The notes: generated from the letters alone by a model not told the origin. A stretch of 64,000 nt of DNA from Erythrobacter sp. SCN 62-14 (GCA_001724215.1 MEDW01000001.1:64725-128724); one strand, 5' to 3'. Shown: positions 12,006 to 22,017, counted from the first letter of the stretch. Made by a program: numbers and translations.

Positions 12006-12626
12006 CTACATGTGGCTGAAAATGTCGTGTTCGGCCCAGCCAGCCAGATCGAGCCGTGCGCGGGCGGGCAGAAAATCAAAGCAAGCCTGCGCCAGTTCCA
12101 GCCGGCCTTCGCGTTCGAGACGCACCACCAATTCATCGCGAAGGGCGTGCAGGTAGCGCACATCGCTGGCCGCGTAATCGCGCTGTGCCTCGTTGATCAC
12201 CGGCCCGCCCCAGTCCGAGCTTTGCTGCTGCTTTGAGATCGATTGGCCGAGCAATTCCTCGACGAGGTTCTTCAACCCATGCCGGTCGGTGTAGGTGCGC
12301 ACGAGTTTGCTGGCAATCTTGGTGCAAAACACCGGCGCGGCCAGCACGCCGAGGTAATGTTCGATCGCTGCCAGATCAAAGCGCGCAAAGTGATAGAGCT
12401 TCACCCGAGCAGGATCAGCCAGCACCGCTTTAAGATTGGGCGCATCATAATTGCTGCCGGGGTTGAAACGCACAAGATGTTCATCCCCTGTGCCATCTGC
12501 AATTTGCACCACGCACAGCCGATCACGCGCAGTGATGAGCCCCATGGTCTCGGTATCGACAGCGAGCGCGCTCGTGCCGGTGAGCACGCCTGCGGGCAAG
12601 TCTTCTTCATGAAAATGCACAGCCAT
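12006..12626 (-). CDS. rnd: Ribonuclease D family 3'-5' exonuclease
   Basis: DEDDy motifs: AVDTETMG, HFARFD, QSSDWG, YAASDV. Confidence 0.92.
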   Translation of the reverse strand: MAVHFHEEDLPAGVLTGTSALAVDTETMGLITARDRLCVVQIADGTGDEHLVRFNPGSNYDAPNLKAVLADPARVKLYHFARFDLAAIEHYLGVLAAPVFCTKIASKLVRTYTDRHGLKNLVEELLGQSISKQQQSSDWGGPVINEAQRDYAASDVRYLHALRDELVVRLEREGRLELAQACFDFLPARARLDLAGWAEHDIFSHM

Positions 12627-12688
12627 GCGCTTGCCCTAGAGAAGTTGGGGATAGAGGGAAAGAGCCAAGGCGTGTAGCAGGCGTGGAC

Positions 12689-13375
12689 ATGACAGCAGAG
12701 ACAATTCCCGAAAGCTGGCGCGCGGCGCTTGAACCGGTGCTGGCGAGCGCCGAGGCACGCAAGCTTGGTGGCTGGCTGCGGGCTGAGGAAGCGGCGGGCA
12801 AGGCGATTTTTCCGCCGCGCGGACAACGGCTGGCGGCGCTTTCCATGACGCCGCTTGAAGCAGTGCGCTGTGTGATTTTGGGCCAGGATCCCTATCATGG
12901 TCCGGGGCAGGCCAATGGACTTGCTTTTTCCGTTGCTCCCGGTGTGAAGGTGCCGCCTTCGCTGGTGAACATCTACAAGGAGCTGGAAAGCGATCTTGGC
13001 CTGCCGCGTCCGCTGCATGGCGACCTTAGCGGCTGGGCACGGCAGGGCGTGCTGCTTTTGAACAACACGCTGACAGTCGAGACGGGGCAGGCGGGTAGCC
13101 ATGCCGGGCGCGGGTGGGATCAGATCACCGATGCCTGTGTGGCTGCGGTCGCGGAAAATGGCCTGCCAACGGTGTTCATTCTGTGGGGCAGTCATGCCCG
13201 CAAGAAAGCCTCACGCGTGCCCGCTTTGGGGCGTTCATCGCACCATCTGGTGCTGATTTCGGCCCATCCCAGTCCGTTATCGGCGCATAATGGTTTCTTT
13301 GGCTCTCGTCCGTTCAGTCAGGCGAACAGCTTTCTCGAGCGCGCCGGGCGCGGGGCGATTGATTGGAGTTTGTGA
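12689..13375 (+). CDS. ung: Uracil-DNA glycosylase (family 1)
   Basis: GQDPYH, PPSLVNIYKEL, GVLLLN and HPSPLSA motifs. Confidence 0.97.
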   Translation: MTAETIPESWRAALEPVLASAEARKLGGWLRAEEAAGKAIFPPRGQRLAALSMTPLEAVRCVILGQDPYHGPGQANGLAFSVAPGVKVPPSLVNIYKELESDLGLPRPLHGDLSGWARQGVLLLNNTLTVETGQAGSHAGRGWDQITDACVAAVAENGLPTVFILWGSHARKKASRVPALGRSSHHLVLISAHPSPLSAHNGFFGSRPFSQANSFLERAGRGAIDWSL

Positions 13376-13377
13376 CG

Positions 13378-14187
13378 ATGCGTGATCTTGGGGATGATGT
13401 GGTGCTGCTGGATATTGCCGATGGCGTTGCGACAGTAACGCTCAACCGGCCTGAGGCGATGAATGCGCTCAATCGCGCGATGCGGCGGCGGCTTTATGAG
13501 GTGATGCGCGCGGTTGATGACGACGAAGCGGTGCGCGCGGTCATCCTGACGGGCGCAGGAACAAGGGCTTTCACCGCCGGGCTTGATCTCAAGGAATTGG
13601 GGAGCGAGGCAGGTGCACTGGGTAGCGCCAATGCCACTGACCCAGCCGTTAATCCGGTCAAAGCCATTGAAGGTTGCCGCAAACCGGTGATTGGCGCAAT
13701 CAACGGCGTGGCCATCACGGGTGGCTTTGAAGTGGCGCTGGCCTGCGATGTGCTGATCGCCAGCGAGAATGCGCGCTTTGCTGATACCCATGCGCGCGTG
13801 GGCATCATGCCAGGCTGGGGCCTGTCGCAGAAACTTTCCCGCATGATCGGAATTTCCCGTGCCAAGGAACTGTCATTCACCGGCAATTTCCTTGATGCGT
13901 CCAGCGCTCTGGCGTGGGGGTTGGTCAATCATGTGGTGGCGGCCGATGACCTGCTGCCGCTTGCCCGCAAGCTGGCGGGCGACATGGCAAGCATCGACCC
14001 TGCTTTCCTTGGAGCTTACAAACGGCTGATCGATGATGGCTTTGCCGGCTCGTTCGGTGATGGCATGACGCTTGAGGCTGAGCGTTCGAGCGCCGCTAAT
14101 TCGGCGGTTGCCCCTGAACAGGTCGAGGCCCGGCGGGTGGCTGTCCAGCAGCGCGGGCGTGGGCAGGCTGATACCAGTTTAGGCTGA
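13378..14187 (+). CDS. Enoyl-CoA hydratase/isomerase family protein
   Basis: TLNRPEAMNA, AFTAGLDLKE, AINGVAITGGFEVALACD, FADTHARVGIMPGWG. Confidence 0.93.
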   Translation: MRDLGDDVVLLDIADGVATVTLNRPEAMNALNRAMRRRLYEVMRAVDDDEAVRAVILTGAGTRAFTAGLDLKELGSEAGALGSANATDPAVNPVKAIEGCRKPVIGAINGVAITGGFEVALACDVLIASENARFADTHARVGIMPGWGLSQKLSRMIGISRAKELSFTGNFLDASSALAWGLVNHVVAADDLLPLARKLAGDMASIDPAFLGAYKRLIDDGFAGSFGDGMTLEAERSSAANSAVAPEQVEARRVAVQQRGRGQADTSLG

Positions 14188-15094: not shown

Positions 15095-15175
15095 ATGACG
15101 ACAATTTTTGGCGGCTTTACCGCGCCAGCCGGTGCTTGTTGCGCCCACTGGCGGTGCCGGAGGGCAGGGGCGTGA
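15095..15175 (+). CDS. Candidate 26-aa leader peptide (uORF) MTTIFGGFTAPAGACCAHWRCRRAGA
   Basis: ATG at 15095. Its TGA (15173-15175) overlaps the GTG start of the next gene in a GTGA arrangement. The putative SD (GGGGG 15077-15081) is 13 nt away, so support is weak. Confidence 0.3.
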   Translation: MTTIFGGFTAPAGACCAHWRCRRAGA

Positions 15176-16290
15176 GCGCGGCTACTACCTACAGCCAGTC
15201 GGCAGGGCTGGCCGACCTTTTGGCCAGAGCCAATCTCTCGATTGCTTTCACCTCATACCAATCAGGGCTGCTCTATTTGCTGGGCCGTTCGCGCAGCGGA
15301 CTGCACTTGCATCAATGTGCAATCGAACGGCCGATGGGGCTTGCGCGTTGCGGCGAGCAAGGGCTGGTGGTGGCTGCCGGTCATCAGTTGATCCGCTTTG
15401 CCAATCCGCTAGCTCCGCACGAGCGGGTCAATGCTCAGTTCGATGCCTGTTATGCGCCGCGCATGGTGCACGTCACCGGGGAGGTTGATGCCCATGATGT
15501 CGGCATCACCGGTGATGGCGAGCTGCTTTTTGTCAACACCCGAATGAATTGTCTGGCTGCGCCCGATCCGGTGCACAGCTTTCGCGAGATCTGGCGGCCA
15601 TCCTTTATCTCGGCCTTGGTCGATGAGGATCGCTGCCACCTCAATGGCTTGGCGATGTGCGAGGGCGAACCGGCCTATGTCACCGCCGCCAGCCGTTCCG
15701 ACACCATCGATGGATGGCGCGACCGGCGCGCGTCAGGCGGCGTGGTTATAGATGTCCGGACGAGCCAAATCGTGTGCGAGGGGCTCTCAATGCCTCATTC
15801 GCCGCGTTGGCATGATGGCGAATTGTGGTTGCTGAACGCGGGCACTGGCGAATTGGGCGTGGTCGAGGGGCTGGCCAAAGGGGCTGGGCGGTTCGTCCCG
15901 CGGGTCTTCTGCCCCGGTTTTGTGCGCGGCCTGGCGTTTCATGGTGGCTATGCTTTCGTTGGCCTGTCCAAGCCGCGTTACCAGCGTTTCGAGGGCCTCG
16001 CTCTCGATCAGCGACTGGCCGATACTGATAGCGAGCCATGGTGCGGCATCCAGATCATCGACCTTGCGCGCAATGTCTGTGTCGAATGGTTTCGCATCGA
16101 TGGCGCGGTCGCTGAGCTTTACGATTTGGCGGCACTGCCCGGCGTCGAATGCCCCATGGCGATCAGTCTCAACACGCCTGAGGCGACAGGATTTGTGACC
16201 TGGGCGGGGCGCACGCCTGCAACTCCCACCATCCCCGATTCTGAGCCGGTGACTGGCAAGCCTGCCCAAGATGCTGGTTTTGCTGCTTAA
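15172..16290 (+). CDS. TIGR03032 / DUF4915 family protein (uncharacterised, predicted beta-propeller, no signal peptide)
   Basis: Family motifs AFTSYQSG, TGEVDAHDV, EDRCHLNGLA, GLSMPHSPRW, FCPGFVRGL, VGLSKPR, ELYD. GTG start chosen from GGAGG upstream and the start of family similarity; the ORF track's 14986 start is probably too long. Confidence 0.9.
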   Translation: MSAATTYSQSAGLADLLARANLSIAFTSYQSGLLYLLGRSRSGLHLHQCAIERPMGLARCGEQGLVVAAGHQLIRFANPLAPHERVNAQFDACYAPRMVHVTGEVDAHDVGITGDGELLFVNTRMNCLAAPDPVHSFREIWRPSFISALVDEDRCHLNGLAMCEGEPAYVTAASRSDTIDGWRDRRASGGVVIDVRTSQIVCEGLSMPHSPRWHDGELWLLNAGTGELGVVEGLAKGAGRFVPRVFCPGFVRGLAFHGGYAFVGLSKPRYQRFEGLALDQRLADTDSEPWCGIQIIDLARNVCVEWFRIDGAVAELYDLAALPGVECPMAISLNTPEATGFVTWAGRTPATPTIPDSEPVTGKPAQDAGFAA

Positions 16291-16317
16291 TTCCATATAG
16301 TTTCAAGGAGTTTTCCC

Positions 16318-19300
16318 ATGAGCCCGATTACCAAAGCCGCTGCTGGTTTTGCCAGCATTACCCTGCGCGGCGGACGCATCACCAAGTGGCATGGGCAGGC
16401 CGCCAGCTGCGCCCCGCAGGTCGGCAGCCTTGGCACGGGCGCTATCGCTGCTTCGGCCAGCACGCTGGCGATTGGCGCTGCGCTGGGTGCTGTGATGCTG
16501 ACGCCTTCGGCAGCGCAAGCGGGCCAATGCGCCGAGACAGTGCCGGGTTCGCTGGTGTTTGAATGCACCGGGCCAGAAAATGCTTCGAACGACGTAACGC
16601 AGTTGCTGGTGGCTGCTGCGGGCGAATCGGTGCTGATTGAGACTCAGCCGGGCTTCGGCCTGGCTGTTTCGGGCAGCCCTGCCTTTGATATCACCGGAGC
16701 ATCCGGCAGCGGATCGATCACATTGCGTGATCGGAACAACAACGCGAGCCGCTTTTTGGGGCGCGGCGGCATTACCATCAATCACAGCGGCACCGGTGCC
16801 GTCGATCTTGAAGTCAGCGCTTTGGTTCTCGGCACGCAGGTCGGCAGTAGCATCTTCGTGGATAGTCGGGGCAGCGGGATCAGTGTAGTCGCACGCGAGG
16901 TGTCAGCGCCGCGCGGCGTTTATGTGATCGGCCGTGGCACGGGCGACATATCGATCACCACGACGGGCCTTGTCACCGGAACCGTGTTTGAAGGCATCTA
17001 CGCAGCGACCACCAGCTCAACCGGTGCGCTGAGCATAACGGCCAATGATGTCACGGGCGGCAGCGATGCAATCCGCGCTTCTGCCAGCGGCGCGGGCGCC
17101 ACCACCATCACAACCACCGGCACGGTAGCAGGCGGCACCAATGGCATCGCGGTGCGCGATTATGGCCCGGGCGATCTGATGATCACCACCAGCGGCGCGG
17201 TGTCCGGCGGTGCCAATGGCATCCTGATATCGGATTATGGCGCGGGCAATATTGTGGTGAACGCCACCGGTCCGGTCTCAGCCACTAATGTTGCCGGCAT
17301 CAATATCGACAAGGAATTTGCCGGCGCGCGTCTGGGCGACATCACCGTGAACGCTGTTGATACCAGCAGCATCTTTGGCATTCGCGTCCGCCAGAATGGG
17401 ACGGGCGATCTTTCGATCACTTCGACAGGCACGGCCACGGGCCTTGGCAATGGCATCGGGATTGAAGCCTTTTCATTGGGCGGCGATGTCACGATTGCCT
17501 CGCAGACTGCAACCGGTGGCTATACGGGCATCAGGGTGCGCGGCGGCATCGGAGAGACCAGCATCACCGCCGACACCACCACGGGCGGAGCCTATGGGAT
17601 CAAGGCCTATTCGGGTGGAACTGGCGGCTTGGCCATCACCACGTCGGGCGTCACCACCGCGACCAACGCTACTGATGGCACCGCCATTCAAGCCGACAGC
17701 AACGGCTCGCTTGCGATCACCACGAATGGCGCCACGATCGGCGGCGCGCGCGGTATCGCCTTCTCGCAGGTGGGCGCTGCCACCATCACGACCAATCAGG
17801 CAGTTGAAGGCACGAGCGCAGCCGGGATTGAGGGCAATATTGGCCAATACGGCTATGGCTCAGGCGGCACCACCACCATTACCTCCAATGCCGCTGTGCG
17901 CGGCGGCACGGATGGTATCCTTATCCGCGATTACGGCACAGGCGATGTTCAGATTACCGCTTCGGGCGATGTGACCGGCACCAGCGGCTCTGCTATCCGC
18001 GTTATCAAGGATTACGCCGGCGCGCGCCTTGGCGATATTGCGATCAGCGCGGTAAACACCAGCGGCGGCGCTTCGGGGATCGAGGTCTTCCAGCAGGGCG
18101 AAGGCGCGCTTTCGATCACGTCGACCGGCACAGCGAACGGCGCAGGCGTGCATGGCATCAACGCCAATTCCTATGGCAATGGTCTCACCATTACCTCGCA
18201 AGAGGCAGTGGGCGCGAACACCGGCATCCGCCTCGCCGCTTTTGGTGCGACTGGTGCGGATAGTGTGACTTCGCACACCGCCACCGGCGGCCAGTCGGGC
18301 ATTGTTGCAGGCTCGGCCAGCCGCGATGGGCTGACAGTCACCACCACCGGCGCCACGACAGGAGGCAGCGGCACAGGCCTGGTCGCGAGCAACAGCAGAG
18401 GCGATGTGGTGATCAATGCCCAGGGCGCGGTGAGCGGCGGCTATGACGGGATTTTCGGCAGCTCCAATGATGGCAGCGGCACGCTCACCATCACTGCGAG
18501 CGCGCCTGTCACCGGCACGGCGCGTCACGGCATCGCGGCCTATGCCCAGCGCAATGCGGCGGCGCGCATTGAAATTACCGCAGGCGATGTGAGCGGCGGC
18601 GAAAGCGCTATCTTCGCCTATGCCGATCCGGTGAACGGTATTGCGATCACGCTCAGCGGCACGGCGCAAGGCGGCAGCGGAGCGGCGATTGATACGATCA
18701 CGGGCGCAGGCGCGCTTTCGACCATCACCATCACCGATACCGCAGGGGCGCTGGCGGGCTCTTCGGGCGTTGCGATCCGCAATGATGCGGGCGACTCGCT
18801 GGTTGATGTCGCTGGCACAATCGGCGGCGATGTGCGGCTCGGCGAAGGGTCGGACACGCTCAATATTGCGGCAGGCGCCGTGCTGCAAACCGGGTTGGTG
18901 CTGGATGGCGGGGACACCGCCTCGGCAGCCGATGGCATGATCGACACGCTCAATTTCAACGGCTGGAATGGGGTTCTGGCAGGCAGCAACCTTACCAATT
19001 GGGAAGCAATCAATCTGAACACCGGAACAGAGCTGCGCCTGACCGGCGGCACGCTTGTCACGGGCGATGCAGGCGATCTGGCGACCGGCCTGTTTGTGAA
19101 CACGGGTGCGACGCTGGATCTGGGCGGGGTGGGCCTCGCCCTGACCGGCAATCTGTTTAATGATGGCACGATCACCATGGCAAATGGCATAGCGGGCGAT
19201 GTGCTGGCGGTGTCGGGCGATTACGTCGGCACGGGCAACGGGGTGATCGGACTCGACACCAATTTCTTCACCAACATTTCCGACCGGCTAACGGTAGGCG

Positions 19301-21780
19301 GCGCGGTTTCAGGCGGGATTACGACGTTGGGGATCAGCGATGTTTCGACCGGCACGGCCAGCGGCAGCGCGGTTCTGGTGGTGGAAGTGCAGGGAGCCTC
19401 GCCCGCAGGCGTCTTCATGCTTGGCCGCGGCCCGATCACGGTGGATGGCCAGACCTACAGCCTTGAACAACAGGGTAACAACTGGCTGCTGACGGCGATC
19501 TGCACGGCGCCAGGAGGCTGCAGCGCGGTGACACCGCCGCCGCCTCCACCGCCGCCGCCGCCTTCGGGCACGATTGACGGCGACCTTGCTGGAAGCCCGG
19601 CCAATCCGATTGTCACAGTGGACCAGGATACCACAGTTACGGGCACAGTCAGCGGCGGGGCAACCGGCCCGGATGCGCGCAATTTCATCACCATCGACAC
19701 CACCGGCACAGTCGGCGCCGTTGCAGGGGACGCAGGCGATGATCAGATCTGGCTGCTTGGCGGCACAGTGCTCGGCAATGTCGCAAGCGGCGAGGGCGAT
19801 GATCGCATCATGCTCAACGGCGGCAGTGTTGCCGGTGCGATTGATGCAGGCAATGGCAACAACGCTGTTAACTTGATGGCGGGCAGCGCAGGCTCGGTTC
19901 AATCGGGCATGGGCAATGATGTGGTGCAGCTTGGCGGCGCCACCATCGCAGGCGCGATTGATACAGGCGCAGGCGATGATACGATCGTGCTGATCGCAGG
20001 CAGTGCCGGATCCGTGCTGGCAGGCGCTGGCAATGATACGCTGAACTGGAACAGCGCTGCTGCCATCACGCCGCTTATCAATATGGGCGCAGGCAATGAT
20101 GTGCTCAACATCAATGATGCCGCGATTGGCCTTGCCAATGTGGTGCTGAACGGAGGCACTGGCGCCAACACGCTCAATCTCAACAATGGTTGGAGCGGCG
20201 CGCTTGCCGGGGCAAACACGCTGGGTTGGCAGAGCATCAATGTGAACGGCGGCACGCTGTTCGTGAATGACGGGGCGATCACGGCGGGCACGCTGACGAT
20301 CGGCAATGGCGGCACGCTCAACGCATCGAACAGCCTTGTGGTGAATGGCAATCTTGCGGTGAGCGCAGGCTCGATGCTGATTGCGGGCAACAACACCGGG
20401 ACCAATCGCCCTGTGGTGCGCGGCAATCTCTCTAATGCAGGCACAATCGATCTGCGCAGCCCGACCGGCGTTGTCGCGGCCGGCGATATCCTGACGGTGG
20501 AAGGCGATTACATCACGCTCGCCAATAATCTGCGCCTTGATGCGGTGCTGGGCGGCAATCACCTGTCCGATCAGGTGGTGGTGCGCGGCAATCTTATCGG
20601 CACGGGCATGGTGACGATCAGCAATGCAGGCGGCACGGGCGCGCTGACCACGGGCGATGGCATCCGGCTGGTGCAGGTTGATGGGTCATCGGCCAATGGT
20701 TCGCTGGCTCTGGCGGGCGGGACGATTGATGTCGGCGCGTTCCGCTATGGCCTGTTTGCAGGCGGCATCGCCAATCCCGGTGATCAGGACTGGTATCTGC
20801 GATCGCGCGCGCGCGATATCGTAATGCCCACCATCAGCATGGCCCGCGTGTCGCAGGACCTTGGCTTGACGGCGCTTGGCACGCTCAACGAGCGGGTCGG
20901 CGAGCAGGCGCGGATTGGCGGCGCGGGCGATGAAAGCGGCGTCTTTACCGGAGCCTGGCTGCGCGCCTTTGGCAAGTCTGGACCTGAGACGATCATTTCG
21001 GCAGCTTTTGGCGACACCCGCAGCGATGCCCAGATGGGCGGGCTTCAGATGGGCGTTGATGTGCTGCGCTCGGTGGCCAGCGATGGCTCGCGCACGGTGC
21101 TCGGGCTGACGGCTGGTGCAATGTGGGCAGGCACGCGTGATTTTGCCGGAGCACAGCGCGCCGCGCGCATGGGCCAATCCAATTCGGATGGCTTTGTGAT
21201 CGGCGCCTACGCCACGCATTATGCGCCCTCGGGCTTCTATGTCGATGCGGTGCTGCAGCATGACTGGCTCGATCACACGATCAGCGCAGTCGATGGCACC
21301 CGCGCGGATACAGACAGCCGCACCTTCATTGCCTCGCTCGAAATGGGCCACGCTTTCGGCTCCCTGTGGCAGATCGAGCCGCAAGCGCAGCTGATTTACG
21401 CGGCCACCAGCGTTGATGGCTTCACCGACAGCTCGCGCGTTGCCAACAGCGTGTCGGTGGATGACAGCGTGATTGGCCGGGCGGGCCTCAGGTTGAAGCG
21501 CAGCTTTGCAGGCGATGAGACCACCGGGGCAGGGCGCGTGACCATCTACGGCAAGGGCAATCTGTGGCATCGCCTGAGCGGCGGCGGTGCGGCCTTCAGC
21601 GTGGGCGTGTCGGCTCCGGGCGCAGTGTTCTTCCGCGAAAGCTGGGGTGATGTGGGCGCGGGCGTCAGCGTCGGCATTGGCCCGCGGGCCGAATTCTTCG
21701 CTGATGGCGAGGTTGAGTTCGGCCTCGACCAAAGCGGCACCGCCGTGGCGGGGCGGACTGGGATCCGACTGCGGTTCTAA
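16318..21780 (+). CDS. Type Va autotransporter adhesin, 1820 aa (AIDA-like Gly/Thr/Ser/Ala-rich passenger, C-terminal beta-barrel)
   Basis: AAGGAG SD at 16305-16310. About 68-aa extended signal peptide ending AQA. Repetitive beta-helix passenger; barrel motifs GAWLRAFG, GFYVDAVLQ, SLEMG, IEPQAQL; ends GIRLRF. Confidence 0.95.
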   Translation: MSPITKAAAGFASITLRGGRITKWHGQAASCAPQVGSLGTGAIAASASTLAIGAALGAVMLTPSAAQAGQCAETVPGSLVFECTGPENASNDVTQLLVAAAGESVLIETQPGFGLAVSGSPAFDITGASGSGSITLRDRNNNASRFLGRGGITINHSGTGAVDLEVSALVLGTQVGSSIFVDSRGSGISVVAREVSAPRGVYVIGRGTGDISITTTGLVTGTVFEGIYAATTSSTGALSITANDVTGGSDAIRASASGAGATTITTTGTVAGGTNGIAVRDYGPGDLMITTSGAVSGGANGILISDYGAGNIVVNATGPVSATNVAGINIDKEFAGARLGDITVNAVDTSSIFGIRVRQNGTGDLSITSTGTATGLGNGIGIEAFSLGGDVTIASQTATGGYTGIRVRGGIGETSITADTTTGGAYGIKAYSGGTGGLAITTSGVTTATNATDGTAIQADSNGSLAITTNGATIGGARGIAFSQVGAATITTNQAVEGTSAAGIEGNIGQYGYGSGGTTTITSNAAVRGGTDGILIRDYGTGDVQITASGDVTGTSGSAIRVIKDYAGARLGDIAISAVNTSGGASGIEVFQQGEGALSITSTGTANGAGVHGINANSYGNGLTITSQEAVGANTGIRLAAFGATGADSVTSHTATGGQSGIVAGSASRDGLTVTTTGATTGGSGTGLVASNSRGDVVINAQGAVSGGYDGIFGSSNDGSGTLTITASAPVTGTARHGIAAYAQRNAAARIEITAGDVSGGESAIFAYADPVNGIAITLSGTAQGGSGAAIDTITGAGALSTITITDTAGALAGSSGVAIRNDAGDSLVDVAGTIGGDVRLGEGSDTLNIAAGAVLQTGLVLDGGDTASAADGMIDTLNFNGWNGVLAGSNLTNWEAINLNTGTELRLTGGTLVTGDAGDLATGLFVNTGATLDLGGVGLALTGNLFNDGTITMANGIAGDVLAVSGDYVGTGNGVIGLDTNFFTNISDRLTVGGAVSGGITTLGISDVSTGTASGSAVLVVEVQGASPAGVFMLGRGPITVDGQTYSLEQQGNNWLLTAICTAPGGCSAVTPPPPPPPPPPSGTIDGDLAGSPANPIVTVDQDTTVTGTVSGGATGPDARNFITIDTTGTVGAVAGDAGDDQIWLLGGTVLGNVASGEGDDRIMLNGGSVAGAIDAGNGNNAVNLMAGSAGSVQSGMGNDVVQLGGATIAGAIDTGAGDDTIVLIAGSAGSVLAGAGNDTLNWNSAAAITPLINMGAGNDVLNINDAAIGLANVVLNGGTGANTLNLNNGWSGALAGANTLGWQSINVNGGTLFVNDGAITAGTLTIGNGGTLNASNSLVVNGNLAVSAGSMLIAGNNTGTNRPVVRGNLSNAGTIDLRSPTGVVAAGDILTVEGDYITLANNLRLDAVLGGNHLSDQVVVRGNLIGTGMVTISNAGGTGALTTGDGIRLVQVDGSSANGSLALAGGTIDVGAFRYGLFAGGIANPGDQDWYLRSRARDIVMPTISMARVSQDLGLTALGTLNERVGEQARIGGAGDESGVFTGAWLRAFGKSGPETIISAAFGDTRSDAQMGGLQMGVDVLRSVASDGSRTVLGLTAGAMWAGTRDFAGAQRAARMGQSNSDGFVIGAYATHYAPSGFYVDAVLQHDWLDHTISAVDGTRADTDSRTFIASLEMGHAFGSLWQIEPQAQLIYAATSVDGFTDSSRVANSVSVDDSVIGRAGLRLKRSFAGDETTGAGRVTIYGKGNLWHRLSGGGAAFSVGVSAPGAVFFRESWGDVGAGVSVGIGPRAEFFADGEVEFGLDQSGTAVAGRTGIRLRF

Positions 21781-21981: not shown

Positions 21982-22017
21982 GCGCAGCAGCGCAACAGCG
22001 CTGCGCGTTATTTTTTT
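21982..22017 (+). terminator. Candidate intrinsic terminator about 200 nt downstream of the autotransporter
   Basis: GCG-cag-CAGCGC aaca GCGCTG-CGC hairpin followed by GTTATTTTTTT. Confidence 0.55.

What the first reader, a model, noticed from the sequence alone, without database searches (positions are those of the whole stretch)
15172..21780. Candidate new system: cytoplasmic TIGR03032/DUF4915 protein paired with a giant autotransporter
Seen: the two genes are co-oriented, 27 bp apart, with a strong SD and no terminator between them. The TIGR03032 protein has no signal peptide and carries clustered Asp/His/Cys motifs (DAHD, DRCHLNG, MPHSPR, CPG). The autotransporter has a roughly 68-aa extended signal peptide and a very Ser/Thr/Gly/Asn-rich passenger. 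Known: TIGR03032 is uncharacterised; in E. coli aah-aidA and tibC-tibA a cytoplasmic enzyme encoded just upstream modifies (heptosylates) the passenger before export. Inference: this protein may be a dedicated modifying enzyme or chaperone for its adhesin, which would give the family a function. The chemistry is unknown and it shows no glycosyltransferase motifs I can recognise.
Basis: partly seen in the sequence, partly recalled or inferred. Interest (0 to 1): 0.78.

Follow-up and report, generated by a model that had tools for sequence, protein, structure and literature searches.

The report
Propeller protein partnered with giant adhesins
An uncharacterised cytoplasmic beta-propeller protein (TIGR03032/DUF4915) sits directly beside a giant autotransporter adhesin here, sits beside other giant surface proteins in many bacteria, and is often fused to protein-modifying enzymes, so it is probably a new accessory factor that acts on such adhesins before they are exported.

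Summary
A 372-aa TIGR03032/DUF4915 gene (15172-16290) lies 27 bp upstream of a co-oriented 1820-aa classical autotransporter (16318-21780), with an AAGGAG ribosome site and no terminator between them.

Among the 80 closest homologues in species-representative genomes, an autotransporter is the immediate neighbour in 26 and lies within 10 kb in 38. Adjacent versus non-adjacent genes give an odds ratio of 10 (p=6e-12). Both gene orders occur and the flanks are unrelated. In 13 of 15 plasmid records, from Cyanobacteria, Planctomycetes and Proteobacteria, the neighbour is a giant surface protein: autotransporter, choice-of-anchor Q, FG-GAP, cadherin-like, VCBS, Ig-like or IPTL-CTERM.

The domain is very often fused to TPST-like sulfotransferase, Asp/Asn beta-hydroxylase, TPR, O-GlcNAc-transferase-type GT41, GT2 or GNAT domains.

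AlphaFold gives a confident propeller (pLDDT 92.7) with no close solved relative. By inference, the invariant His, Cys and Arg residues ring its central channel. No homologue has a signal peptide.

Best reading: a two-gene module in which a cytoplasmic, probably catalytic, propeller acts on the unfolded adhesin before export. The chemistry is unknown and no literature was found.

The parts
15159..15164 (+). Shine-Dalgarno-like GGAGGG, 7 nt upstream of the GTG start of the TIGR03032 gene
   Evidence: Read directly from the sequence.
15172..16290 (+). TIGR03032/DUF4915 gene (372 aa). It is predicted to be a cytoplasmic six-bladed beta-propeller with invariant motifs DAHD, EDRCHLNG, SMPHSPR and PGFxRG.
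   Evidence: TIGR03032 scores 373 bits and PF16261 scores 396 bits. The AlphaFold model has pLDDT 92.7 and pTM 0.89 and is all-beta. No signal peptide was found.
16291..16317 (+). 27-bp intergenic spacer carrying AAGGAG (16305-16310), 7 nt before the autotransporter ATG. It has no terminator.
   Evidence: Sequence read. No terminator-like site was found there.
16318..21780 (+). Classical (type Va) autotransporter gene, 1820 aa
   Evidence: PF03797, PF18883, PF03212 and TIGR01414 all match.
16318..16521 (+). Long N-terminal signal region (residues 1-68). The hydrophobic core is at residues 50-61 and the predicted cleavage site is AQA|G.
   Evidence: Hydropathy scan and inspection. There is no Pfam ESPR hit. 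No dedicated signal-peptide predictor was available.
16360..16425 (+). Conserved pre-signal tag TLRGGRITKWHGQAASCAPQVG (consensus GGRxTKxxGxxxSxxPxxG). It is shared by partner autotransporters from several alphaproteobacterial orders.
   Evidence: Alignment A8. The metagenome scan found 57 genuine occurrences, 20 of them with TIGR03032 in view.
16528..16566 (+). Cys71-x11-Cys83-x-G-P loop at the start of the mature passenger. An equivalent Cys pair opens nearly all partner autotransporters.
   Evidence: N-termini listed.
19534..19563 (+). Poly-proline linker (10 Pro, a CCG repeat) that splits the passenger into two modules
19699..20046 (+). Ca2+-binding 19-residue repeats (xGxGNDxhxhxGG) resembling the Marinomonas ice-binding adhesin
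   Evidence: PDB 3p4g matches residues 1128-1243 with E=2.9e-12.
20425..20799 (+). Autochaperone / pertactin-like junction (residues 1370-1494)
   Evidence: PF18883 and PF03212.
20953..21708 (+). Autotransporter beta-barrel translocator (residues 1546-1797)
   Evidence: PF03797, E=1.4e-32.
21987..22009 (+). Terminator-like hairpin with a T-run, about 200 bp after the autotransporter stop. It is the likely end of the two-gene unit.
   Evidence: This is a consensus match only.

Best explanation
The two genes form a portable two-gene module.

The TIGR03032 protein is a cytoplasmic six-bladed beta-propeller. It is made together with the autotransporter from one transcript (inferred). It acts on the still-unfolded autotransporter polypeptide before Sec export. 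Its target would be the passenger and/or the long N-terminal signal region.

I consider it most likely a catalytic protein-modifying enzyme rather than a passive binder. By inference from the model's strand positions, the invariant residues M55, H108, C155/H156, H209, R252 and E315 sit at the start of the innermost strand of each blade. There they would ring the central channel and form a metal- or anion-binding active site.

In other lineages the same domain works beside other modifying enzymes, or is fused to them. These are O-GlcNAc-transferase-type GT41, GT2, TPST-like sulfotransferases, Asp/Asn beta-hydroxylases and GNAT acetyltransferases. The partners there are other giant secreted repeat proteins.

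Shown here: gene adjacency, enrichment of giant surface-protein neighbours, the domain fusions, the predicted fold, and the absence of a signal peptide.
Inferred: co-transcription, action on the passenger, and catalysis.
Unknown: the chemistry.
For: (1) Anatomy. The gap is 27 bp, a Shine-Dalgarno site is present, and no terminator lies between the genes.

(2) Genome census, using the 80 closest homologues from one genome per species.
- An autotransporter is the immediate neighbour in 26 loci. It is co-oriented in 21 of them: 15 upstream and 6 downstream.
- In 5 more loci it lies within 600 bp.
- In 38 of 80 loci it lies within 10 kb.
- Adjacent genes are autotransporters in 26 of 153 cases, against 16 of 795 non-adjacent genes. 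Fisher odds ratio 10, p=6e-12.
- Pfam independently found PF03797 in 26 of 60 large neighbours, plus 7 of the 23 I had not classed as autotransporters.

(3) Both gene orders occur within Sphingomonadales, within Rhodobacterales and within Arenimonas.
- Close relatives at 79% and 73% identity keep the pair but have different flanks.
- None of the six other neighbouring ORFs I tested was found next to TIGR03032 in those loci.

(4) Other partners are all surface proteins.
- Trimeric autotransporter, FG-GAP/RTX giants, and TPR-GT41 followed by TIGR03032 followed by a 3247-aa FG-GAP/RTX protein.
- In RefSeq-annotated plasmids, 13 of 15 records have an autotransporter, choice-of-anchor Q, FG-GAP, cadherin-like, VCBS, Ig-like or IPTL-CTERM protein adjacent or one gene away.
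- One locus combines PAPS-synthesis genes, a beta-helix IPTL-CTERM protein, an Asp/Asn-hydroxylase-sulfotransferase fusion and DUF4915.

(5) Fusions.
- 119 of the top 150 cluster representatives are 480 aa or longer.
- Of 63 scanned, 30 carry Sulfotransfer_3, 15 Asp_Arg_Hydrox, 13 TPR, 6 GNAT and 4 GT2.
- GT41 and GT2 architectures appear.
- The GT41 part of the cyanobacterial fusions matches human O-GlcNAc transferase at E=2.6e-157 and 4.4e-131.
- Fusions that already carry a TPR substrate-binding array argue that the propeller is not just a docking domain (inference).

(6) Cytoplasmic location. None of 234 stand-alone homologues has a signal-like stretch. The fusion partners use PAPS or nucleotide sugars.

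(7) Fold and conservation. The model is confident (pLDDT 92.7, pTM 0.89). 49 columns are invariant across subfamilies sharing about 36% identity, including EDRCHLNG and PHSPR.
Against: - There is no experimental or transcript evidence.
- About half of the 80 closest loci show no giant neighbour. Some of these are truncated contigs, but others have ordinary neighbours such as DabA or Mfd.
- The window has no transferase or hydroxylase gene near the pair. A stand-alone activity therefore has to be assumed.
- Foldseek finds only generic propellers (TM 0.52 or less). Profile searches against PDB and Pfam find no related family. No cofactor or reaction can be assigned.
- The placement of the invariant residues around the channel is inferred from strand positions. 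It was not measured on coordinates.
- One MAG carries two modules whose propellers are 84% identical, each beside its own divergent autotransporter. This fits a stoichiometric helper as well as it fits an enzyme.
- The fusion count comes from the best-scoring cluster representatives, so it may over-represent long proteins.
Confidence: 0.6

Rival explanations
1. The propeller is a non-catalytic, dedicated chaperone or targeting factor. It binds the long signal region (for example the RGGR(I/M)TK tag) or the unfolded Gly/Thr/Asn-rich passenger. It keeps the passenger export-competent and delivers it to Sec or to trans-acting modifying enzymes.
For: - The module always keeps one propeller gene beside each adhesin. 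This holds even when two nearly identical copies exist in one MAG.
- A conserved pre-signal tag co-occurs with TIGR03032. It is in view in 20 of 57 metagenomic occurrences, nearly always directly adjacent.
- Propellers are common peptide-binding platforms (general knowledge).
- No cofactor motif was recognised.
Against: - The partner proteins are very diverse, yet the propeller's polar residues are invariant across phyla. This points to an invariant small ligand or to catalysis.
- Many fusions already contain a TPR substrate-binding array.
- Autotransporters paired with TIGR03032 in Lysobacterales lack the tag.
- Two loci that carry the tag and are readable on both sides lack the propeller.
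Confidence: 0.2
2. The propeller acts on a non-protein substrate, such as a surface glycan, LPS or exopolysaccharide precursor. It would be linked to adhesin genes only because both belong to a co-regulated surface-remodelling set.
For: - Some contexts and fusions involve GT2, weakly GT9-like domains, DUF707, LicD, GalE, and an acyl-carrier and adenylating-enzyme cluster.
- Sulfotransferases could equally sulfate polysaccharides.
Against: - The immediate neighbour is the giant protein itself, often with a gap of 0-300 bp or an overlapping stop and start.
- Same-strand small neighbours show no recurrent polysaccharide genes.
- The strongest fusion partners are protein-directed. They are O-GlcNAc transferase with its TPR array and Asp/Asn hydroxylase. 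The sulfotransferase has only weak similarity to TPST1 (E about 0.004).
- The window pair has no glycan genes beside it.
Confidence: 0.1
3. The adjacency is incidental. Both genes are accessory-genome cargo that hitch-hike together on islands and plasmids without a functional link. A variant of this rival is that the propeller is an immunity protein or inhibitor against a passenger activity.
For: - Many examples are on plasmids or in variable regions.
- Giant adhesins are common accessory genes.
Against: - Enrichment is specific to the immediately adjacent position, compared with other genes in the same loci (odds ratio 10, p=6e-12).
- Both gene orders are retained, and the pattern recurs across Cyanobacteria, Planctomycetes and Alpha-, Beta- and Gammaproteobacteria with unrelated flanks.
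- Fusions to modifying enzymes are unexplained by hitch-hiking or by immunity.
Confidence: 0.05

Closest known systems
Aah/AIDA-I and TibC/TibA: bacterial autotransporter heptosyltransferase (BAHT) modules of E. coli (PMC4358343)
   Same: A cytoplasmic accessory protein is encoded right next to a classical autotransporter. It acts on the Ser/Thr-rich passenger before export. The pair travels as a two-gene unit.
   Different: BAHTs are GT-B (GT9-like) dodecameric glycosyltransferases that use ADP-heptose. The protein here is a beta-propeller with no match to any glycosyltransferase family. Its partner range also extends to proteins that are not autotransporters.
HMW1C / NGT cytoplasmic N-glycosyltransferases (GT41) acting on HMW1 and on the trimeric autotransporters Knh and EmaA (PMC4550697, PMC10507012)
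   Same: These are soluble cytoplasmic enzymes that modify giant adhesins before secretion. GT41 enzymes appear fused to DUF4915 or directly upstream of it in other lineages.
   Different: The window protein has no GT41 domain. Where GT41 is present it is the TPR-OGT type, and it is an additional domain rather than the propeller itself.
Six-bladed propeller enzymes (PAL of peptidylglycine amidating monooxygenase, SGL/SMP30, paraoxonase, virginiamycin B lyase, arylsulfate sulfotransferase)
   Same: They share the overall fold class and a likely central-channel active site built from residues at the start of each blade. The hydroxylase-plus-propeller fusions recall the PHM-PAL pairing in PAM (my own knowledge).
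   Different: The structural resemblance is only generic (Foldseek TM 0.31-0.52, sequence identity 8-14%). No sequence relationship was found. Their catalytic residues could not be matched.
ESPR, the extended signal peptide region of autotransporters (Pfam PF13018)
   Same: This autotransporter has a long signal region of about 68 aa, with a conserved motif ahead of an ordinary signal peptide.
   Different: It does not match the ESPR model. The motif GGRxTKxxGxxxSxxPxxG has a different sequence, and no Pfam or NCBIfam model reported it for this protein.

Membership tests
TIGR03032 / DUF4915 (PF16261) | Full-length match above the curated score cut-offs | tested here: met
   373.2 bits against a cut-off of 251.5, covering model positions 3-330 of 335. 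396.2 bits against a cut-off of 35, covering 3-316 of 316.
TIGR03032 / DUF4915 (PF16261) | Family-invariant motifs (EDRCHLNG, LSMPHSPR, PGFxRG) | tested here: met
   All three are present. They fall in columns that are invariant in alignments A1, A4 and A7.
Classical (type Va) autotransporter | C-terminal autotransporter beta-barrel translocator domain | tested here: met
   PF03797 at E=1.4e-32 (residues 1546-1797) and TIGR01414 at 222.5 bits.
Classical (type Va) autotransporter | Autochaperone / pertactin-like junction before the barrel | tested here: met
   PF18883 (residues 1370-1479) and PF03212 (residues 1398-1494).
Classical (type Va) autotransporter | N-terminal Sec signal peptide | tested here: inconclusive
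   There is a hydrophobic core at residues 50-61 and an AQA|G site near residue 68, judged by hydropathy and inspection. No signal-peptide predictor was available.
BAHT (Aah/TibC) autotransporter heptosyltransferases | GT9-like GT-B glycosyltransferase domain | tested here: not met
   The window protein hits only DUF4915, even at E up to 10. Its predicted fold is an all-beta propeller.
HMW1C / NGT (GT41) | GT41 catalytic domain | tested here: not met
   The window protein has no PF13844 hit. GT41 occurs only as a separate domain or gene in other lineages.
ESPR-type extended signal peptide | Match to PF13018 | tested here: not met
   The Pfam scan of the autotransporter reports no ESPR hit.
Known six-bladed propeller enzyme families (SGL, NHL, PAL, ASST, Str_synth) | Sequence or close structural similarity, including the catalytic residues | tested here: inconclusive
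   Foldseek gives E about 1e-7 to 1e-5, but TM is 0.52 or less and rmsd is 5-11 A. Profile and HMM searches are not significant.

The most novel reading that the evidence does not exclude
DUF4915 may be the catalytic core of a widespread, unrecognised system of cytoplasmic post-translational modification for giant bacterial surface proteins. The targets would include autotransporters, choice-of-anchor Q beta-helices, and FG-GAP, RTX, cadherin and VCBS adhesins.

In this reading the propeller installs or edits a modification with chemistry not yet described for propellers. One possibility is a metal-dependent lyase or transfer step on Asp, Asn, Ser or Thr. In different lineages it would be combined in a modular way with hydroxylation, sulfation, O-glycosylation or acetylation.

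In the alphaproteobacterial autotransporter subfamily, the conserved RGGR(I/M)TK pre-signal tag would be its docking site.
Probability: 0.3. Interest if true: 0.88.

Novelty: new variant of a known kind. Interest (0 to 1): 0.78.

Why it matters
TIGR03032/DUF4915 is a large family. It has 6099 clusters at 50% identity with E up to 1e-3. It has no assigned function, and a full-text search of the held library found no paper naming it.

The evidence here gives the family a testable biological role. It would be an accessory factor for large adhesin-like surface proteins that acts in the cytoplasm before export.

If confirmed, it would add a third, structurally unrelated class of autotransporter-associated cytoplasmic factor, alongside the heptosyltransferases and the HMW1C-type glycosyltransferases. 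It would link type V and type I secretion substrates and sorting-tag surface proteins through one shared maturation step. It would also point to bacterial protein sulfation, hydroxylation and O-GlcNAc-type modification of surface proteins.

The window's two-gene module is the simplest form of the system, so it is a good starting point for experiments.

Tried and rejected
- Literature: a full-text search for DUF4915 and TIGR03032 returned nothing. Searches on IPTL-CTERM, choice-of-anchor and autotransporter modification found nothing relevant.
- Remote homology: the profile search against PDB was not significant. The best hit, E=0.033, is a single blade-like stretch of soluble glucose dehydrogenase. 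A Pfam scan at E up to 10 gave no second family.
- Structure: Foldseek against PDB gave only generic propellers. I do not file the protein under ASST, PAL or SGL.
- Other window neighbours: DUF3617, the response regulator, FGase and SapC are not conserved with the pair. Same-strand small neighbours across loci show no recurrent partner. The most frequent were IalB in 5 of 74 and EF-hand in 4 of 74.
- The MpAFP-like Ca-binding repeats of this autotransporter are not a shared feature of partner proteins. I rejected them as the common target.
- The RGGR(I/M)TK tag is not an exclusive recognition signal. It is absent from Lysobacterales partners, and two loci have the tag but no propeller.
- GT9 (heptosyltransferase) hits in fusions are weak and local, 25.8 bits over 44 residues. 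I do not count them as evidence for heptosylation.
- The fused sulfotransferase shows only weak similarity to TPST1 and to the CurM sulfotransferase (E 0.0003-0.008). These are hints only.
- The search for related loci with the tag alignment failed because it had no usable conserved stretch. I replaced it with a degenerate DNA pattern scan.


Full report
**1. What is in the window**

Two co-oriented genes occupy 15172-21780.

Gene A runs 15172-16290 and starts with GTG. A GGAGGG lies 7 nt upstream. It encodes 372 aa that match TIGR03032 (373 bits, cut-off 251.5) and PF16261/DUF4915 (396 bits) end to end. Its TAA stop is followed by a 27-bp spacer that carries AAGGAG 7 nt before the ATG of gene B.

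Gene B runs 16318-21780 and encodes an 1820-aa classical autotransporter. It has an autochaperone/pertactin junction at residues 1370-1494 and a PF03797 barrel at residues 1546-1797.

A consensus scan finds no terminator-like site between the genes. One lies about 200 bp after gene B, at 21987-22009.

The surrounding genes are ordinary chromosomal ones: leuS, a sugar transferase, DUF3617, a response regulator, FGase, SapC, an FAD oxidase, a DEAD helicase, uvrD, rsmD-like, a pseudouridine synthase and a TonB-dependent receptor. GC content is even across the region. No glycosyltransferase, sulfotransferase or hydroxylase gene lies next to the pair.

**2. The propeller protein**

AlphaFold2, run with a 46-sequence alignment spanning two subfamilies, gives a confident all-beta model (mean pLDDT 92.7, pTM 0.89). 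The strand pattern fits six four-stranded blades, closed by the N- and C-termini.

Foldseek against PDB returns hundreds of propellers but nothing close. The best TM-score is 0.52, with 8-14% identity. The hits are WD40, YWTD, NHL, SGL, paraoxonase, strictosidine synthase, arylsulfate sulfotransferase and PAL. A profile search of PDB sequences and a permissive Pfam scan find no related family.

Across subfamilies sharing only about 36% identity, 49 columns are invariant. A core of these stays invariant in 63 multi-domain relatives as well: C155-H156-L-N158-G, P208-H209-S-P, R252-G, W141, W182 and T123.

Setting these residues against the model's strand positions places M55, H108, C155/H156, H209, R252 and E315 at or just before the first (innermost) strand of successive blades. 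In propeller enzymes that position is the rim of the central channel.

None of 234 stand-alone homologues has a signal-peptide-like stretch. The protein is therefore cytoplasmic.

**3.

The 80 closest, at 46-68% identity, were fetched with 10-kb flanks.

I called ORFs myself. I built an autotransporter-barrel HMM iteratively. I cross-checked with Pfam on the large neighbours.

Results:
- An autotransporter is the immediately adjacent gene in 26 of 80 loci. It is co-oriented in 21 of them: 15 upstream and 6 downstream of the propeller gene.
- In 5 more loci it lies within 600 bp, behind a small and probably spurious ORF.
- In 38 of 80 loci it lies within 10 kb.
- As an internal control I used the other genes in the same loci. 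Adjacent positions are autotransporters in 26 of 153 cases, against 16 of 795 elsewhere (odds ratio 10, Fisher p=6e-12).

Several of the remaining loci are contigs cut off next to a passenger-like ORF.

Both gene orders occur within Sphingomonadales, within Rhodobacterales and within Arenimonas. Relatives at 79% and 73% identity keep the arrangement of propeller followed by giant autotransporter, but with entirely different flanks. None of the six other neighbouring ORFs I tested from the window was found next to TIGR03032 in those loci.

One Rhodanobacter MAG carries two modules. Their propellers are 84% identical, while their autotransporters align at only 41% and only over the C-terminal third.

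**4. The partner class is wider than autotransporters**

Among the genomic loci, other immediate neighbours are:
- a trimeric autotransporter;
- FG-GAP/RTX giants;
- in three betaproteobacterial loci, a TPR-GT41 glycosyltransferase directly upstream, once followed by a 3247-aa FG-GAP/RTX protein.

All 15 plasmid records holding a homologue were inspected using their RefSeq annotation. Thirteen have a giant surface protein adjacent or one gene away:
- autotransporters in Phyllobacterium, Loktanella and three Novosphingobium plasmids, two of them with overlapping stop and start;
- choice-of-anchor Q proteins in Planctomyces and Synechocystis;
- FG-GAP proteins in Acaryochloris and Nostoc;
- cadherin-like and VCBS proteins in Nostoc;
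- an Ig-like protein in Gloeothece;
- an IPTL-CTERM protein with a sulfotransferase in Diaphorobacter.

In the more distant subfamily, one locus reads as follows: PAPS-synthesis genes, then a beta-helix IPTL-CTERM protein, then an Asp/Asn-hydroxylase-sulfotransferase fusion, then DUF4915. Another reads: GT9, GNAT, an IPTL-CTERM protein, then DUF4915.

**5. Domain fusions**

An exhaustive profile search of 1.84 billion cluster representatives finds 6099 family clusters. Of the best 150, 119 are 480 aa or longer. This may over-represent long proteins, because the figure comes from the top-scoring representatives.

Pfam scans show these architectures:
- Asp_Arg_Hydrox + Sulfotransfer_3 + DUF4915
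- Asp_Arg_Hydrox + DUF4915
- Sulfotransfer_3 + DUF4915
- DUF4915 + TPR
- DUF4915 + TPR + GT41
- TPR + GT41 + DUF4915
- DUF4915 + GT2 (with or without TPR)
- DUF707 + DUF4915 + GT2
- DUF4915 + GNAT

These come, and for the Nostoc GNAT tail.

Of 63 fusions counted, 30 have Sulfotransfer_3, 15 Asp_Arg_Hydrox, 13 TPR, 6 GNAT and 4 GT2. Four have a weak GT9-like hit, which I discount.

The GT41 part of the cyanobacterial giants is a true O-GlcNAc-transferase homologue, matching human OGT at E=2.6e-157 and 4.4e-131. One of these genes lies directly upstream of an FG-GAP protein and cysC. The fused sulfotransferase shows only weak similarity to protein-tyrosine sulfotransferase 1 and to the CurM sulfotransferase.

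The recurring partners are thus enzymes that modify proteins in the cytoplasm using PAPS, nucleotide sugars, acetyl-CoA or 2-oxoglutarate.

**6. Interpretation**

The adjacency statistics, the retention of the pair through rearrangements and across phyla, and the fusions together make a functional link very likely. The link is between the propeller and the neighbouring giant secreted protein. I put it at about 0.85.

The known precedent is a cytoplasmic enzyme that modifies the adhesin before export. Examples are TibC and Aah (PMC4358343) and HMW1C-type enzymes (PMC4550697, PMC10507012). Those are glycosyltransferases. This protein is not one, because the membership tests for GT9 and GT41 fail.

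I favour a catalytic role over a passive one for two reasons:
- The polar residues are invariant although the partner proteins are very diverse.
- Many fusions already carry a TPR substrate-binding array.

A dedicated holdase or targeting factor remains a serious rival (0.2). A glycan-directed activity is a lesser rival (0.1).

The chemistry cannot be deduced. The hydroxylase-plus-propeller and sulfotransferase-plus-propeller fusions suggest a step that follows or accompanies hydroxyl-group chemistry. That is speculation.

**7. Features of the autotransporter noticed on the way**

(a) Residues 15-36, TLRGGRITKWHGQAASCAPQVG, form a conserved tag ahead of the signal peptide's hydrophobic core.
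- The same motif (invariant GGRxTKxxGxxxSxxPxxG) opens partner autotransporters in Sphingomonadales, Rhodobacterales and Hyphomicrobiales, whichever the gene order.
- A degenerate DNA scan of metagenome contigs found 66 matches. Of these, 57 are genuine N-terminal tags of long ORFs, and 20 have TIGR03032 in the visible stretch. Eighteen of those have it upstream (16 within 56-330 bp and co-oriented, one on the opposite strand, one about 2 kb away), and two have it directly downstream.
- Of the 42 with at least 1.4 kb visible upstream, 15 have the propeller there.
- The tag is not exclusive. Two loci readable on both sides lack the propeller, and Lysobacterales partners lack the tag.
- It matches no Pfam or NCBIfam model.

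(b) Nearly all partner autotransporters begin their mature passenger with a Cys-x(8-13)-Cys-x-G loop. Here that is C71 and C83.

(c) The passenger has two modules, split by a 10-proline linker encoded by a CCG repeat.

(d) The second module contains 19-residue Ca2+-binding repeats like those of the Marinomonas ice-binding adhesin (PDB 3p4g, E=2.9e-12). This feature is particular to this protein.

**8. Limits**

- No signal-peptide predictor was available.
- The census covers the 80 closest relatives plus samples of the wider family. It is not the whole family and carries no phylogenetic correction.
- ORF calls in the loci are my own crude calls, cross-checked by Pfam only for the larger neighbours.

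**9. Verdict**

I found no literature on the family. The logic of the system, an adhesin with a dedicated cytoplasmic partner, is known. The partner family, its fold and its chemistry are not. I therefore rate it a new variant of a known kind, with high interest.

Noticed in passing
window 16360-16425 (autotransporter residues 15-36): There is a conserved pre-signal tag, TLRGGRITKWHGQAASCAPQVG (invariant GGRxTKxxGxxxSxxPxxG). It is shared by partner autotransporters of several alphaproteobacterial orders. It matches no Pfam or NCBIfam model. The metagenome scan found 57 genuine occurrences, 20 of them with TIGR03032 in view.
   Followed up: partly
window 16528-16566 (autotransporter residues 71-83): A Cys-x11-Cys-x-G-P loop sits right after the predicted signal-peptidase site. 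An equivalent Cys pair opens the mature passenger of nearly all TIGR03032-linked autotransporters, including the Lysobacterales ones that lack the tag.
   Followed up: partly
window 19699-20046 (autotransporter residues 1128-1243): These are 19-residue Ca2+-binding repeats resembling the Marinomonas primoryensis ice-binding adhesin (PDB 3p4g, E=2.9e-12). A motif count shows the module is not shared by the other partner autotransporters.
   Followed up: yes
window 19534-19563: A CCG repeat encodes 10 prolines. It splits the passenger into two modules, and the first module ends with an autochaperone-like YSLEQQGNNWLLT. The repeat could be a site of length variation.
   Followed up: no
window 17107-17247: A 75-bp tandem repeat (1.9 copies, 77% match) lies inside the passenger-coding region.
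   Followed up: no
L040 and L050 (two contigs of one Rhodanobacter MAG): One MAG carries two separate autotransporter-then-TIGR03032 modules. The propellers are 84% identical. The autotransporters align at only 41%, and only over the C-terminal third.
   Followed up: partly
L093:3537-11092: This cluster contains CysNC/APS-kinase and CysD-like PAPS-synthesis genes, a Beta_helix/IPTL-CTERM surface protein, an Asp/Asn-hydroxylase + Sulfotransfer_3 fusion, and DUF4915. It looks like a complete candidate hydroxylation and sulfation pathway for a surface protein.
   Followed up: partly
L167:8806-17757 (Nostoc sp. C057 plasmid): A 1512-aa protein combines DUF4915, a chondroitin-synthase-like GT2, TPR repeats and an O-GlcNAc-transferase homologue (human OGT, E=2.6e-157). 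It is followed by an FG-GAP repeat protein and by cysC.
   Followed up: partly
same-strand small neighbours of TIGR03032 in L008-L087: IalB (invasion-associated locus B) domains occur in 5 of 74 small co-oriented neighbours, and EF-hand proteins in 4 of 74. The numbers are too small to interpret.
   Followed up: no
window 12401-13791 (- strand): The long minus-strand ORFs here translate to Arg/His-rich sequences with no Pfam family. They are probably not genes, and overlapping plus-strand ORFs (12243-14187) may be the real ones. This was not resolved.
   Followed up: no
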